Shown one piece after another: positions 20,850 to 46,861 of a DNA stretch of 64,000 bases. A program made the translations under genes and the position numbers. How positions within the stretch are numbered: position 1 is the first letter of the stretch; the number at the start of each line of letters is the position of its first letter. Source of the stretch: Mobula hypostoma (Eukaryota); assembly GCF_963921235.1 (NCBI RefSeq), contig NC_086097.1, forward strand, positions 146,136,001-146,200,000, read 5' to 3'. The notes below the pieces were generated by a model. It was not told where the DNA came from, ran no database searches, and was given only the letters and a program-made list of their open reading frames with translations.

Positions 20850-22119
20850 CTGGAGGGAATAAAAAATTTTGACAGACACGAACATTAAAGAGAAACGAGT
20901 ACTTTATTTCATATTCAGTATGACATCTTTGTACATAAATGTGCCACCCTATTAACTCATTGCTTTCCAAAGCACAGTTTGTAACAATTTGTAAGTTCTC
21001 CACAAATGGGCTAGAAACCAATAATGTTGGAAATACTCACAGGTTAGACAACATATGTGGCAAGAGCAGCAGTTCTAATATTTTAGATTGATGATGATCA
21101 TGTTACCAGCCTGTTCTTCTTTTCATGTTGGTATAACTAAAATTTTTGGTTCATTGTAAAAATACTTATTGTACCCTCTTTTTGAGTATACTTCTAATCC
21201 AGTGCTTCAGGGTCATGTTTCAAGTCATTAACTTTAAGTAACAAACCATCTGCTGGTGGAACTCAATGAGTCAAGTAGCTGGTGACCTTTTTTCACTGAT
21301 AGAGGAATTTCAGTCAGTATCCTCTGGGACTGGAGGGACATAACTGAAATAGTAAAGTCACCACCAAATGCTATAATCCAGTAAGCATGTTAAAGGCGAC
21401 TTGACAAATCATAGATTCTAATGGGCCCTAATTTATTTCAGGCAAGTACTTGTAAAATTCTATTCATAAATCTTTTTTTTTGTGTGAACCCCCAGATTAA
21501 AAGGCAACTACTGTATCTTTCTTAGAGGACCTCCAAAGTGTTGTGTATTTAATATTTCAATAATATTTGAGTAATATTGTAAATATATTTGATTAAGCAT
21601 TTTTCCTTTAAATAATTCATTACGGGTTATGTATTTTTAAAAAAATGTGAATTGCATAAGTCATGACACTATCATGTCAGACACGCGTGTCTCACTAAAT
21701 GTAAAACAGAGAATATATACAAGTTATCCCAGATTCATGATTTTCTTGCAATTAGTTTTATGTTTTATGCTGTGGAGTTGCAAAACATAACACTGGTGAC
21801 AGGATATTTTAAAAATGAACCAAAGGTGATTAACCACCTGTTAAAGCGCAATGAGGTATTCGAGTTTGAAAAAAACACACAGTATGCTTTTTTCGTAAGA
21901 GGAGTCATTCGAGTTTAAAAAAAAAAGGCAGGAAACAGACAAATTCGTGGGTTCATAAACAGTGAGTACTGGGTGATAGTAATGATTTTTTGAAAAGCAG
22001 AAATGTCTGGCTACGTCAAAAATAGATGCATTCCATTCCACAATGGATAACTGGCTCATGTATACTGAACAAATTGAGCAGCATTTTGAAGCAAATGAAA
22101 TGGCCAATGAGAAGATAGT

Positions 22120-22766
22120 AAACACAAGGAAATCTGCAGATGCTGGAATTTCAAGCAACACACATAAAAGTGGCTGGTGAATGCAGCAGGCGAGGCAGCA
22201 TCTCTAGGAAAAGGTACAGTCGACGTTTCAGGCTGAGACCCTTCGTCAGGACTAACTGAAAGAAGAGCTAGTAAGAGATTTGAAAGTGGGAGGGGGAGAT
22301 CCAAAATGATAGGAGAAGACAGGAGGGGAACAACACCTCATATTCCGTCGGGGGAACAACACCTTATATTCCGTTTGGGTAGCCTCCAACCTGATAGCAT
22401 GAACATTGACTTCTCAAACTTCGGCTAATGCCCCACCTCCCCCTCGTACCCCATCTGTTATTTATTTTTATACACACATTCTTTTTCTCTCTCTCCTTTT
22501 TCTCCCTCTGTCCCTCTCACTATACCCCTTGCCCATCCTCTGGGTTTTCCCCCCCGCCCCCTTTCTCCCTAGGCTTCCTGTCCAATGATCCTCTCATATC
22601 CCTTTTGCCTATCACCTGTCCAGCTCTTGGCTCCATCCCTCCCCCTCCTGTCTTCTCCTATCATTTTGGATCTCCCCCTCCCCCTCCCACTTTGAAATCT
22701 CTTACTAGCTCTTCTTTCAGTTACCCCGACAAAGGGTCTCAGCCCAAAACGTTGACTGTACCTCTT
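22120..22766. mobile_element. Penelope-like element, 5'-truncated with an inverted pLTR
   Basis: Minus-strand pLTR 22120-22328, then plus-strand EQHLIFRLGSLQPDSMNIDFSNFG* (GIY-YIG end) and a pLTR. Perfect 15-bp TSD caatgagaagatagt (22105-22119 and 22767-22781). Confidence 0.92.
22218..22253 (-). ncRNA. Minimal type I hammerhead ribozyme motif (core intact)
   Basis: Minus strand reads agtc CTGACGA agggtctcagcct GAAA c GTC gact, with stem I agtc/gact. Confidence 0.75.
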
Positions 22767-22837
22767 CAATGAGAAGATAGTTCCAGTTTTGCTGAGTGCC
22801 TTGGATTTAAAGGCACAGTTTGCTTAAAAGTCTGAGC

Positions 22838-22925
22838 AATACACATAAAACGCTGGAGGAACTCAGCAGACCGGGCAGCATCTATGGAAAAAGGGACAGT
22901 CGACGTTTCAGGCTGAAACCCATTC
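22838..22925 (-). mobile_element. Second short pLTR fragment inside Gypsy gag
   Basis: Reads acgctggaggaactcagcag...cagtcgacgtttcaggctgaaaccc and is truncated within hammerhead stem II. Confidence 0.7.
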
Positions 22926-23698
22926 CTACCAAAGGGTTTCGAACCAAACTGAGTTGAAAGTGAGTATGAATTGCAACATCTAAACAGAAACCAGCCTGGC
23001 CAAACAAATTGTGTTACCATTGTGGCAGGGGCTCGTATGCATCAGACCAATGCAGATTTAAAGTTGAAACTTGCAGAAAATGCAACAAAGTAGGACACAT
23101 GCCAAGAGCATGTTGAGTAGACAAAAATAAATGGATGCACGGGGAAGAGAGAAAGATAAAAAGGCACGTTGCAGTCTCAGGAAGAGCATTAATCTGCATG
23201 CTGTTGATGAAAAATCTGATGATGGGAGTGACACAGGACTGAGTAGCATTGAGGTTTACAATACGAAAACTAACAACAGACAAGCAAATATGGCTTACAT
23301 CTGGAGTGAGTGACAAATTATTCAAAATTTAATTGGAAGCTGGCTCGGCTGTTTAATTTTATTCCGCAAGATGAGTTTCAATGACATTTCAAGATACTGA
23401 ACTGAAGCCTGCGGATATCCAACTAAGAACGTGTACTGGAGAAAAGTTATCTCTTGTGGGAATGACATTTGTAACAGTGAAATACAACAATCACCAAGCC
23501 ACGTTGGGCTTGGATGTGGTAAAAATAGAAGGACCAGCGTTGTGGGGACTGACTGACTGACTGAGACAACTACAGCTTGATTGGAGATCCATCCACAGTT
23601 GCACATCACATCCCCTGCAATACGATCAACTGAAAGTGAATGCCACAGCTGTCTCCATGCTGTACACCGTGAACAGTTGCCCAAAAGAGGGCAAACGG

Positions 23699-24630
23699 GT
23701 GTTGGTGCTGACTTCTGTGCCTATGGTTGGAAAGCATATTGGACCAAGGAAGGACCATGCTGCTCAGAGGATCATGAAAGTGACAAAAAGCAGTGGTCTG
23801 GCTATAACAATTTTTTTTTAAAAAGACAATATAGCTGAGAAAGCTCCTGATATTTTAATCAGGCAGTTACTGAGAAATGTGACTTGGTTTTAAGCTAGAA
23901 GAGTCTTCCAGGAGCTTCCCGAAAGTTGCAAGCATTCTGCTTTTGTGAGTGTAGCGAATCAAAATCTACTCTGTGTGAATTTATTGCATGAACTTCAAGT
24001 GGGTGACAAAAAAGCTATTTGTAACAGTAGATGCAAAGACCGAAGTCCAGCTGGATGAATGGAAGGTCAAAAAGATGCAAAAATTCTGGATCTGTCAGAT
24101 GATGTGGTGGATGAGGAAACCAAGAGAAGAGTTCGGATCGTAAAAGGAGCAATAGAGGTATTAATAAGAGAATACTCCAGTGAACTAAATGCACCTTTAA
24201 AAGATCAAGATGCAAAAACTAGAAAGACAAAAAAAACAAAGAGAAAGAAGAGGGTGATATAAGTGCTATGGAAATGGAAGAAGATAAACAACAACTAATT
24301 TCTCTAAAATTAGCAAGTTCAGAGATACTCTCAAGTAACTAGATGTAGAAAATGGAAGGCAAGGAAAAAGGAAGACAAAGTTGAAAAGGAGAGAAGAGAC
24401 AGAATGTGAACGAGAGAGAATGGTGTGAAAGGGAGAAGGAATGCAAGAAAGAAAAACACTTGGAATGAATCGTGAGCCGAATCAGAACAGAGAGCAAGAC
24501 TGCGATGGGGATTGTGAGAGAACCAAGGATAAGGAAAGGGGATGCTACTGAGAAAGGAATCGAGAGCGGGATAAAGAGAAAGAAAGCAGCCAGGACTGGG
24601 AGAGAAGCAAGGATCAAAGCAGATCCGGAG
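23699..24630 (+). pseudogene. RBM25: Processed (intronless) partial pseudogene of RNA-binding protein 25: RRM and RE/RD-rich region
   Basis: Across frames: VLVLTSVPMVGKHIGPRKDH, NIAEKAPDILIRQLL, KCDLVLS*, KLQAFCFCEC, LLHELQVGDKKLFVTVDAKTEVQLDEWK, DEETKRRVRIVKGAIEVLIREYSSELNAP, DISAMEMEEDK, ISKFRDT, and an R/E/D-rich run ending RSKDQSRS. These are colinear with vertebrate RBM25 as I recall it, with many stops and frameshifts. Confidence 0.92.
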
Positions 24631-25554
24631 AAGAAAGGAGAAGGAAGGCGTGCAGAGTTGTCAGAACCACTTCCTGCAGTCTCTGAGTCAACTCCAACAA
24701 CCACCATGGAAGAAGCCCCAGAACCTGAGATTGTTTTCACAGCCACAAGTCTCACCTGTCAAGCAGAGTGATCCCCCTTGTCAGGAAAAACATTATCTCA
24801 CAAGAGTAAGAAAGTCTCCATTGCAATTAAACCTTTAAACCTCAATGGGACAATTTAAAGTTAACTATGACATGAATGTCTATGTAGTAGTTGTATTATA
24901 TAGTATGCTGTATGCATTACATATGTCACGATACTACTTTCGTGTCTTGCTAAAAGTAAAACTAAGAACGTACACGAACTATTCTGGCTCCAGGTGTTTT
25001 TCTTGCAATTAGTTTTATGTTTTGGAGTTACAAAACCTAACAGGTAGGTGAAAAGGAATTGCCCAAGTTTCAGGCTGAAACTCTGCATCAGGACTGCATC
25101 TTATGCTGCTCCAGATTCCAACACCTGCAAACTTCTGTGCCTTTGACTTGAAATGCTGACTGTTTCTTTCCTCGCTGCTGTTGCCTGACTGCTGAATATT
25201 CCTAGCATTTTCTGTTTTTATTTCAGATACACAGCAACTTCAGATTTTTGCTTGTCAACTACAAAATAGTATTTGTAAACTTAGCAATATATTTTGTATT
25301 ATTTCTTACAAATTATAACTGCCTTAAGCTGCTTTCTGTTTGCTTATTTTATTAAGTTAAGAAGCAATCTAAAATGGTTCAAAATGGCATACAGTATATA
25401 CACACAGTGGCCACATTATTAGGTAGTTTCTGTATCTTAAAAAAATGGCCACTGAGTGTATGTTCGAGGTCTTCTGCTGCTGTAGCAGATCCACTTCAAG
25501 TTTTAGCCTGTTTCACATTCAATGATGCTCTTCTACACACCTCTGCTTACCTTA

Positions 25555-44790: not shown

Positions 44791-45417
44791 CCTCACTAAT
44801 AAAAAAAGAAGAAAAAAGAAACTAAATAAGCAAGTATTCCAGCTCCTGTTTTTCTGTTTTTCTTTCAATTAGTTTCTGGAGTTACAAAACATAACAGTAG
44901 CAATGAGGAAGGTTTAAAATGAACCTGAGACGACTACCTACCTATTGAAGTGTAGCATGTTTTTCTTTGGAAGGGGAGAGAAATGTTTGAGTTAAAAAAA
45001 AAGGGCAGAAAATTAACAAGCCATGAGTACTATCATGTATTCATAAATAGTATCAGTTGATAATGATACATTTTTTAAAAAGCAGAAATGTCTGGCTATA
45101 TCGGAAAAATAGACATGTTCAATTGCAAAACAGGTAACTGGATGATGTATACTGAATGAATTGAGCAGTACCTTGAAGCAAATGAAATAGCCGATTAAAA
45201 ACGAGTGCCAGTGTTGCTGAGTGCAATGTGTGGAAAAGCACACAGTTTGCATAGAAGTTTAACTTCTCCAAGCAATTCAGCGGAAATCAGCTTTGCTGGT
45301 ATCATAATCATATTGCAGGAACATTTAGAACCAAAGCCATTGCTGATTGCAGGGCACTTTAGGTTTCATAAACATAATCAAAAGAAAGGGGGGCTTACAT
45401 TGCTGAATTGAAGAAAT

Positions 45418-45889
45418 TAGAAACATAGAAACATAGAAAATAGGTGCAGGAGTAGGCCATTCGGCCCTTCGAGCCTGCACCGCCATTTATTATGATCATG
45501 GCTGATCATCCAACTCAGAACCCAGCCTTCCCTCCATACCCCCTGACCCCTGTAGCCACAAGGGCCATATCTAACTTCCTTTTAAACATAGCTAATGAAC
45601 TGGCCTCAACAGTTTGCTGTGGCAGAGAATTCCACAGATTCACCACTCTCTGTGTGAAGAAGTTTTTCCTAACCTCGGTCCTAAAAGGCTTCCCCTCTAT
45701 CCTCAAACTGTGACCCCTCGTTCTAGACCTCCCCAACATCGGGAACAATCTTCCTGCATCTAGCCTGTCCAATCCCTTTAGGATCTTATACGTTTCAATC
45801 AGATCCCCCCTCAATCTTCTAAATTCCAACGAGTACAAGCCCAGTTCATCCAGTCTTTCTTCATATGAAAGACCTGCCATCCCAGGAAT
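45418..45889 (-). mobile_element. CR1 3' end (very young) inserted in Gypsy gag
   Basis: ORF 45515..45880 differs at only 2 aa from the end of ORF 54057..55553. Confidence 0.93.
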
Positions 45890-46380
45890 TGTCTGAGTAT
45901 TATCAGTTCAGTGGTGGGATTAAGGATACATTGAGAGATTGGTTAGATTATGAAATCTTGCAAGAAAGCATCAACAACGGCTCCTAACTGAAGCACAACT
46001 GTCATTCAAACAAGCCATTGATATCACTGTATCAATGGAAACAGCAACCAGAGAGTTGCAGTCAGGAAGAAAGTGAACATGAAAAAATTGCAATGTTTAA
46101 ATAAAATCTGACTGGCTGATCAAATTGTGCTACCATTGTGGCAGGGGCTCACATATTCAGACCAATGCAAGCTTAAAGGAGAAAGTTACAGAAAAAGCAC
46201 AAATAGAACACATACGAAGAGTATATTTGGCAGACAAAAATAAAGGGACTCCACAGGGAAGAGAGAAAGATAAAAAAAAAGTTAAGGTGCAGCTTCAAAA
46301 AGAGCACTAATCTGCATGCTGTTGATGAAAAATCTGATAATGATGAGAGAGACACAGGAATGAGCAGCCTTGAGATTTGA

Positions 46381-46505
46381 CGAAGGGTCTCGGCCTGAAA
46401 CGTCGACTGCGCCTCTTCCTATAGATGCTGTTTGGCCTGCTGCGTTCACCAGCAACTTTGATGTGTGTTGCTTGAATTTCCAGCATCTGCAGAATTCCTG
46501 TTGTT
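46381..46505 (+). mobile_element. Penelope pLTR truncated inside the hammerhead core
   Basis: Reads (tga)cgaagggtctcggcctgaaacgtcgact. Direct repeat agccttgagatttga at 46366-46380 and 46506-46520. Confidence 0.88.
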
Positions 46506-46861
46506 AGCCTTGAGATTTGATTTGTTAAAACTAACAACACACAAGCAAAATGGCTTACACCAGAAGTGAACGGTTAGTTAATTAAAATGGAATTGGTCAT
46601 TGGCTTGACTGTTTCAGTCTTTCCACAAAATGAGTTTGAATGGCATTTCAACCATACTAGACTGAAGCCTGCAGATATCCAACTAAGAACTTATACTAGA
46701 GAAAAGATAACTCCTGTGGGAATGACATTTGTAGCTGTGAAATACAACAACCAACAAGCCACATTGAGCATGTGTGTAGTAAAAACAGAAGGACCAGCAT
46801 TGAGGGGACATAATTGGCTGAGACAATTATAACTTGACTGGAGAGCCATCCTTCAATTATG

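What the first reader, a model, noticed from the sequence alone, without database searches (positions are those of the whole stretch)
21539..25042. RBM25 mRNA fragment captured inside a Gypsy LTR element in place of pol
Seen in the sequence: LTR, PBS, gag and protease, then about 1 kb of intronless RBM25 coding sequence in the same orientation, then the pol tail and 3' LTR. RT, RNase H and the integrase core are absent. The retrocopy is an internal piece with no poly(A) and no TSD that I could find, and its right junction lies in a purine-rich run (gagaagaaaggagaagg). Established: LTR elements can capture host mRNA by template switching during reverse transcription. Inference: this is such a chimera and may have spread as a non-autonomous family. 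The copy is now non-functional (stops and frameshifts).
Basis: partly seen in the sequence, partly recalled or inferred. Interest (0 to 1): 0.8.

Follow-up and report, generated by a model that had tools for sequence, protein, structure and literature searches.

The report
Retrotransposon family carrying spliced RBM25 exons
This is one dead copy of a jumping-gene family whose copying enzymes are replaced by an intron-free piece of the host splicing-factor gene RBM25, likely picked up by a copying slip, and the hybrid now sits at more than a thousand places in the genome.

Summary
Observation confirmed, with two corrections: the 3' LTR is only a remnant (polypurine tract and first ~140 nt deleted) and gag is partly deleted. 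Window 23641-24646 is spliced RBM25 mRNA: 85% identical to the host gene's exons, crossing eight splice junctions, replacing ~2.5 kb of RT/RNase H/integrase of a Gypsy element. Each end lies in a short word shared by mRNA and pol (7 and 9 nt), the template-switch signature. The chimera transposed: its left junction occurs at 1,153 places (control 1), copies have their own LTR pairs and 5-bp target duplications, and nested deletion subfamilies show repeated rounds. Contigs of six other organism labels bridge a junction. Copies decay neutrally; no selection on the captured, in-frame RRM was shown. The mechanism is published (Tan 2016; Chong 2014; Bs1); the scale exceeds the animal cases I read (up to nine copies). 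This scan already reported the same family from six other places in this genome. Added here: exact switch points, the selection test, stepwise shortening of the insert, a reused landing site, and a captured 48-nt exon absent from 31 RBM25-search hits.

The parts
21539..21792 (+). 5' LTR (254 nt, TG...CA)
   Evidence: matches both LTRs of two-LTR relatives L116, L140, L178; contigs of other organisms end their likeness at 21539 (loose ends)
21794..21806 (+). primer-binding-site-like stretch (TGG...)
   Evidence: seen in the sequence; same position in 13 two-LTR copies; the tRNA was not identified
22003..22113 (+). gag N-terminus
   Evidence: tblastn to fish Gypsy polyprotein P0045 aa 6-57
22114..22766 (.). 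later repeat insertion(s) with internal inverted arms; SINE/LINE-type by recall, not tested
   Evidence: absent from family copies, dispersed in the window, inverted pairs I1-I3
22767..22834 (+). gag remnant; ~340 nt of gag missing beyond it
22835..22954 (.). second short repeat piece
22955..23640 (+). gag C-terminus with two CCHC knuckles, protease, first codons of pol; broken by stops and frameshifts
   Evidence: tblastn E 8e-32; Pfam RVP on the same region of relative L112; no Pfam hit on the window copy itself
23641..23647 (+). left switch point: 7-nt word TGCCACA shared by pol and the end of an RBM25 exon; joins pol and RBM25 in frame
   Evidence: loose ends at the same base in four runs
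23641..24646 (+). spliced RBM25 mRNA piece: last 10 nt of one exon, seven whole exons (48-nt exon, RRM exons, RE/RD repeat exon), start of the next; 8 splice junctions at 23650/1, 23698/9, 23874/5, 23932/3, 24073/4, 24252/3, 24335/6, 24628/9
24638..24646 (+). right switch point: 9-nt word GAGAAGAAA shared by an RBM25 exon and the pol tail (8 of 9 kept in this copy); out of frame with pol
24647..24911 (+). pol C-terminal tail and 3' untranslated stretch
   Evidence: 84% to pol-type copy L116
24941..25042 (+). 3' LTR remnant (3' ~100 nt only); no TSD

Best explanation
This is a decayed copy of a Gypsy LTR family in which about 2.5 kb of pol (RT, RNase H, integrase) is replaced by about 1 kb of spliced host RBM25 mRNA, likely through two template switches of reverse transcriptase, and the hybrid was then likely copied by enzymes of intact relatives to more than a thousand sites. 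Shown: intron loss, replacement instead of insertion, shared words at both ends, identical left junction in all copies examined, dispersed sites with LTR pairs and 5-bp target duplications, nested subfamilies, neutral decay. Inferred: an RBM25 mRNA was co-packaged in the particle; RT left the element RNA at the purine-rich word in the pol tail, copied the mRNA, and returned at the second word just behind the protease; one such product kept LTRs, primer site and polypurine tract and so could be mobilised in trans in an old, short burst; shorter derivatives that lost the RE-repeat exon spread further. The captured piece most likely was a passenger.
For: Host gene on the same contig ~46 Mb away (C1:99.79-99.84 Mb, minus strand) has these exons separated by ~28 kb of introns with AG/GT ends. 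Left word 7 nt, right word 9 nt; random switch pairs reach these lengths in 6.6e-4 and 6e-5 of 200,000 draws. Junction 21-mer, up to 2 mismatches: 591+562 hits, reversed control 1+0; 0 of 19 pol-type loci match it within 2 mismatches, 34 of 67 chimeric loci not chosen by it do, which gives a rough 2,300 copies. Perfect 5-bp TSD in 4 of 21 chimeric copies with both ends called, 4 of 5 in two more; chance rate 0.0014 per copy. LTR-LTR identity 75-89% in 13 copies, like the 81.3% mean identity between copies. Insert-length classes long 42, middle 21, short 36 of 99; a derived 2-base marker in 29 of 36 short (0 host-type, 7 other), 14 of 21 middle, 9 of 42 long (25 host-type). Private substitutions 9.3/8.6/8.3% at codon positions 1/2/3; 104 of 126 copies hold an in-frame stop. 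Pol-type relatives have PR-RT-RH-IN order.
Against: No TSD and a truncated 3' LTR in this copy; 15 of 21 two-ended chimeric copies show no convincing TSD (3 of 5 or fewer; age and end-calling errors can explain this). Trans-mobilisation is inferred, not observed, and no intact helper was found among 20 pol-type loci fetched. Copy counts are floors or rough: the pol-side motif hit 2,404 places but matched only 2 of 19 sampled pol-type loci, so the chimera's share of the family is not pinned down (10 of 29 by protease anchor; 19 of 29 by tail anchor; both ranked by likeness to a chimeric query). The 19 synonymous against 1 non-synonymous near-fixed differences to the host gene could not be assigned to a lineage.
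Confidence: 0.93

Rival explanations
1. Same origin, but the captured RRM was translated as a Gag-protease-RRM fusion and helped the element spread (packaging, export or splicing control), so it was kept by selection during the burst.
For: Left junction is in frame. All length classes keep the RRM exons while the RE repeat is trimmed. The 7 non-CpG non-synonymous variants at 15% or more (about 5 events) all lie outside the RRM (chance about 0.09 by my hand calculation). Near-fixed differences are 19 synonymous to 1. Position-2 divergence is 8.5% in the RRM against 10.0% elsewhere (significance not tested).
Against: In-frame fusion arises by chance one time in three. The 19 synonymous differences fit host-side change since capture (14 expected at the copies' own rate, P=0.11); three further differences sit at CpG sites that look lost on the host side. 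Linked subfamily markers are non-synonymous. Loss of the RE exon is what slippage in a purine repeat gives. 322 of 398 small deletions shift the frame.
Confidence: 0.1
2. A LINE-made RBM25 processed pseudogene inserted into a Gypsy copy, followed by a deletion that removed pol, the poly(A) and the TSD; the product was then amplified.
For: The genome is rich in LINE-type sequence (RT and endonuclease domains in an insertion in L120), and internal deletions are common in this family.
Against: Needs two deletions that end exactly in words shared by mRNA and pol on both sides; no poly(A), TSD or 3' exons in any of 54 protein-level hits, which span only aa 60-413 of 836.
Confidence: 0.03
3. Capture by splicing or read-through from a Gypsy copy inside the RBM25 gene, or from a circular RNA.
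For: Both ends lie close to exon borders (10 nt before one, ~30 nt after another).
Against: Neither end is at a splice site: both lie inside exons, within the shared words. The window's protease-to-tail stretch found only exon matches in the 160 kb around the host gene.
Confidence: 0.03
4. The copies come from segmental duplication or assembly error.
For: None found.
Against: Copies are 75-89% alike pairwise, lie on many contigs in both orientations with different TSDs, and occur in independent runs of other organisms.
Confidence: 0.01

Closest known systems
LTR-mediated retrocopies of animals (Tan et al. 2016, Genome Res, PMC5131818; passages and section 5 read; supplements not read)
   Same: Partial spliced mRNA replaces part of the internal ORFs; microsimilarity at both switch points (their median 6 bp); no poly(A) or TSD at the insert; same strand; re-transposition as a non-autonomous element; a reused switch-back site (their BLASTOPIA case).
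   Different: They report 18 insertion sites for nine fly retrocopies, two with more than one site; here one capture stands at 1,153 or more sites with nested subfamilies, is old (~10% decay per copy) and is shared by several organisms.
Crocodilian ERVs with captured KIT-ligand and nectin3 mRNA (Chong et al. 2014, Retrovirology, PMC4299795; passages read)
   Same: Old vertebrate LTR lineage carrying a host mRNA, amplified after capture and shared between species; nectin3 replaces a viral gene.
   Different: Retroviruses, nine and six copies, ORFs kept with reported purifying selection; here a Gypsy element, pol replaced, over a hundred times more copies, no selection shown.
Maize Bs1 (through the review PMC13317346, passages read, and Tan 2016; primary papers not read)
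   Same: LTR element whose internal region carries transduced host gene segments.
   Different: Three donor genes and a transcribed, translated chimeric gene; here one donor and dead copies.
Fish Gypsy elements annotated 'K02A2.6-like'; 'Mag-like clade' is my recalled label, not tested
   Same: RT of pol-type relative L113 is 48-68% identical to these polyproteins; two CCHC knuckles; PR-RT-RH-IN order.
   Different: The chimera lacks RT, RNase H and integrase.

Membership tests
LTR-mediated retrocopy (template-switch type) | Intron-less copy of a spliced host mRNA | tested here: met
   8 exon junctions, ~28 kb of introns absent
LTR-mediated retrocopy (template-switch type) | Replaces part of the element's internal ORFs rather than interrupting a continuous element | tested here: met
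   ~2.5 kb between the two switch points in pol-type L116; RT, RNase H, integrase domains there in L112/L115
LTR-mediated retrocopy (template-switch type) | Microsimilarity at the switch points | tested here: met
   7 and 9 nt; null 6.6e-4 and 6e-5
LTR-mediated retrocopy (template-switch type) | No poly(A) or TSD around the insert | tested here: met
LTR-mediated retrocopy (template-switch type) | Co-transcription with the flanking element | tested here: inconclusive
   6 of 8 listed contigs of run X5 clearly bridge the left junction, but the run is only guessed to be RNA
Non-autonomous LTR retrotransposon family | Many dispersed copies with one shared structure | tested here: met
   1,153 junction hits; 48 of 60 with protease-RBM25-tail
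Non-autonomous LTR retrotransposon family | Two LTRs, primer site, polypurine tract and integrase-type TSD | tested here: met
   13 copies with full LTR pairs, PBS-like and PPT-like stretches; 4 of 21 perfect 5-bp TSDs. This window's copy lacks PPT and TSD.
Non-autonomous LTR retrotransposon family | Mobilisation in trans by an autonomous partner | not testable with these tools
   partner family with the same LTR, gag and tail exists; all sampled copies are broken
Ty3/Gypsy superfamily (parent element) | PR-RT-RNase H-integrase order, no env | tested here: met
   Pfam order in L112 and L115; LTR follows the pol tail within ~100 nt
Mag clade of Gypsy | RT phylogeny with named Mag references | not tested
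   only likeness to 'K02A2.6-like' proteins; clade label recalled
LINE-made processed pseudogene | 3' poly(A), flanking TSD, 3' end of the mRNA present | tested here: not met
Functional retrogene / selected captured gene | Open frame and purifying selection | tested here: not met
   equal divergence at three codon positions, stops in 104 of 126 copies; selection during the burst itself remains inconclusive

The most novel reading that the evidence does not exclude
The captured RBM25 piece was not a passenger: fused in frame behind Gag and protease, its RRM (or the RNA's likeness to an essential host mRNA) gave the hybrid a replication advantage, which let one captured spliced mRNA grow into a thousands-copy family rivalling its autonomous parent while it trimmed everything but the RRM-bearing part.
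Probability: 0.12. Interest if true: 0.8.

Novelty: new variant of a known kind. Interest (0 to 1): 0.5.

Why it matters
It shows that one LTR-mediated capture of a host mRNA can become a mass repeat family in a vertebrate, far beyond the handful of copies in the animal cases I read. That gives a large natural sample for questions usually studied on single events: where RT switches templates (one landing site is reused by RBM25-free deletions), how non-autonomous elements shrink, and how a host copes with over a thousand partial copies of an essential splicing-factor gene (small-RNA cross-silencing is untested). The family is also a fossil of an old RBM25 splice form and coding sequence, a likely source of false RBM25-like gene calls, and a set of shared insertion markers for the related species.

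Tried and rejected
Pfam and PDB on the window's frames read with X at stops: no informative hit, the copy is too decayed. Pfam PWI search of the genome found two other genes, not RBM25; the C-terminus of a fish RBM25 found the host gene. A 10-nt search for the priming tRNA was uninformative, so the tRNA is not named. Rfam: only sub-threshold microRNA-model matches, taken as chance or repeat hairpins. No RNA holder listed for the stretch; run X5 is a guess. Protease-region comparison of 24 pol-type and 119 chimeric copies gave one differentiated column, too little for a tree-based test; no tree was built. Ratio of chimera to parent from motif counts rejected as unreliable. Exon-bounded capture (splicing, circular RNA) rejected since both ends lie inside exons. 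One search computed the TSD probability (3e-8) with n=23; the correct n is 21, which does not weaken it. Two duplicate fetches of the window's own copy were dropped (128 to 126); 27 of 126 copies lacked an anchor and were not length-classed. Literature: 7 searches (listings only unless named); none of the listed papers holds 'RBM25' together with the other terms; no report of this family was seen, but most subscription journals, Repbase and Dfam were not searchable, and Tan 2016's supplementary tables, which could hold larger copy numbers, were not read. PMC5753468 (passages) served only as the pointer to Chong 2014. 'Cartilaginous fish' rests on recalled repeat types and earlier notes, not on a test here.
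Full report
Observation. The window is G000:C1:146136001-146200000 of a 3.48-Gb genome. Between 21539 and 25042 lie a 254-nt LTR, a primer-site-like stretch, gag and protease remnants, about 1 kb of foreign sequence, a pol tail and an LTR remnant. Three fish Gypsy polyproteins hit the window only in gag and protease; none hits RT, RNase H or integrase. The foreign stretch, read with X at stops, hits 31 proteins, most of the named ones RBM25 (best E 2e-17). Two corrections: the 3' LTR has lost its polypurine tract and first ~140 nt, and gag has lost ~340 nt and gained two repeat insertions. No TSD flanks this copy.

The donor gene. The C-terminus of a fish RBM25 gave three exon hits at one locus, C1 ~99.8 Mb. 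In 160 kb fetched there the insert matches seven separate exons at 72-92%, with AG/GT ends (one exon end corrected by a base, which gives an open host frame). The window insert aligns to the joined host exons at 845 of 991 columns and crosses eight junctions, so about 28 kb of introns are absent. It starts 10 nt before the end of one exon and ends about 30 nt into another: it holds the RRM and the RE/RD repeat, but not the start or the PWI end.

The junctions. Of 29 other loci found with the protease, 10 continue into RBM25 and 19 into pol. The two kinds part at the word TGCCACA, which is also the end of the RBM25 exon. Of 29 other loci found with the pol tail, 19 are preceded by RBM25 and 10 by pol; they part at GAGAAGAAA, present in both the pol tail and the RBM25 exon. 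Random switch pairs between the mRNA and a pol-type copy share 7 nt in 6.6e-4 and 9 nt in 6e-5 of 200,000 draws. The replaced segment is about 2.5 kb in two-LTR copy L116 and carries RT, RNase H and integrase domains in Gypsy order in L112 and L115; RT is 48-68% identical to 'K02A2.6-like' Gypsy proteins, mostly of fish. The left joint keeps the reading frame, the right one does not. There is no poly(A) or TSD at the insert. This is the signature that Tan et al. 2016 describe for template switching (PMC5131818, passages and section 5).

The family. The insert's DNA search gave 2,931 first-look candidates, 40 scored. A 21-nt junction motif with up to 2 mismatches matches 1,153 places, its reversed control one; 0 of 19 pol-type loci and 34 of 67 independently chosen chimeric loci match it, which suggests roughly 2,300 copies. 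Of the 60 perfect-match sites fetched (of 100 listed), 60 continue in RBM25, 59 have protease upstream, 49 the tail downstream and 48 all three. Of 21 with both ends called, 4 have perfect 5-bp TSDs and 2 have 4 of 5; 13 have full LTR pairs at 75-89% identity; 2 of 4 pol-type copies have perfect 5-bp TSDs too. So the chimera itself was integrated, many times. Mean identity between copies is 81.3% and to the host exons 86.4% (126 copies), about the same as LTR-pair identity: an old, short burst (inference). Shared deletions of the RE-repeat exon define long, middle and short classes (42, 21, 36 of 99), and a derived two-base marker is in 29 of 36 short and 9 of 42 long copies: later rounds started from shortened templates. 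The pol-side motif matches 2,404 places, but it covers the parent family poorly, so the ratio stays open.

Other organisms. Listed contigs bridge the left junction in runs of organisms G, H and I (7, 8 and 8 of the 8 listed pieces each), with loose ends of the pol type at the same base. Single contigs bridge the right junction in D and F, and the short-form joint appears in B, D, E and F. The family is older than these splits. Names are coded; 'cartilaginous fish' is recalled and taken from earlier notes, not tested.

Selection. Private substitutions are equal over codon positions (9.3, 8.6, 8.3%), 104 of 126 copies have a stop and 322 of 398 small deletions shift the frame: the copies are dead. 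Near-fixed differences from today's host gene are 19 synonymous and 1 non-synonymous, against 14 synonymous expected if the host changed at the copies' own rate (P=0.11), so they need no selection on the element. Linked subfamily markers are non-synonymous. Weakly for the other reading: the in-frame left joint, retention of the RRM in all classes, and frequent non-CpG amino-acid variants only outside the RRM. I put a selected role at about one in ten.

Comparison. It is a member of the LTR-mediated retrocopies and a non-autonomous LTR family; it fails the tests for a LINE pseudogene and for a functional retrogene. Precedents read: Tan 2016 (18 sites for nine fly retrocopies), Chong 2014 (nine and six copies of ERVs with captured mRNAs) and Bs1 through a review. 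Seven literature searches showed no report of this family or of a captured mRNA at this copy number in an animal; the library is incomplete and repeat databases were not searchable. The scan's index holds six earlier notes on the same family in this genome and two on other captures in other genomes; I looked only after my own reading was set, and they are not independent support.

Verdict. Real, well explained, known mechanism, unusual scale: new variant of a known kind, interest 0.5.

Noticed in passing
L077, L079, L093, L108 (and L110), against L115: Four RBM25-free copies share a deletion from the start of RNase H to the same purine-rich word in the pol tail at which the RBM25 insert ends; L110 also resumes there from another left point. 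The word looks like a reused template-switch site.
   Followed up: partly
window 23651-23698; host gene G000:C1 ~99,832,586-99,832,633: The captured mRNA includes a 48-nt in-frame exon with AG/GT ends in the host gene; 109 of 113 copies that cover the next exon's start carry it, while none of the 31 hits holds the peptide (16 show the two neighbouring exons joined directly). Likely a lineage-specific or alternative exon, preserved as a fossil splice form.
   Followed up: partly
window ~44855-46859: A second copy of the same Gypsy family (LTR end, gag, protease) that breaks off just before the left switch point, so its type cannot be told.
   Followed up: partly
window 22201-22328 and 22642-22774: Inverted arms (98% over 44-46 nt) inside the insertion in gag, enclosing a short tandem duplication at 22325-22376; L020 holds a similar piece.
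   Followed up: no
window 21305-21583, run X11: A contig of organism D runs from the unique 5' flank 45 letters into the LTR with 26 differences and 11 gaps, so this very insertion seems older than that split; contigs of organisms B and E reach under 31 letters into the LTR.
   Followed up: partly
L011, L150, L181: Copies in which an LTR lies directly beside the junction or early RBM25 part, i.e. further internal deletion derivatives of the chimera.
   Followed up: no
G000:C91:57053834, C59:28260903, C18:168619643, C2:224750744: Four of 54 protein-level hits have no stop inside the matched RBM25 stretch; fetched as L183-L186, they are as diverged as the rest (86-89% to the host).
   Followed up: partly
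window 25396-25463: A near-palindromic stretch scores below threshold to a microRNA model on both strands; probably a small inverted-repeat element.
   Followed up: no
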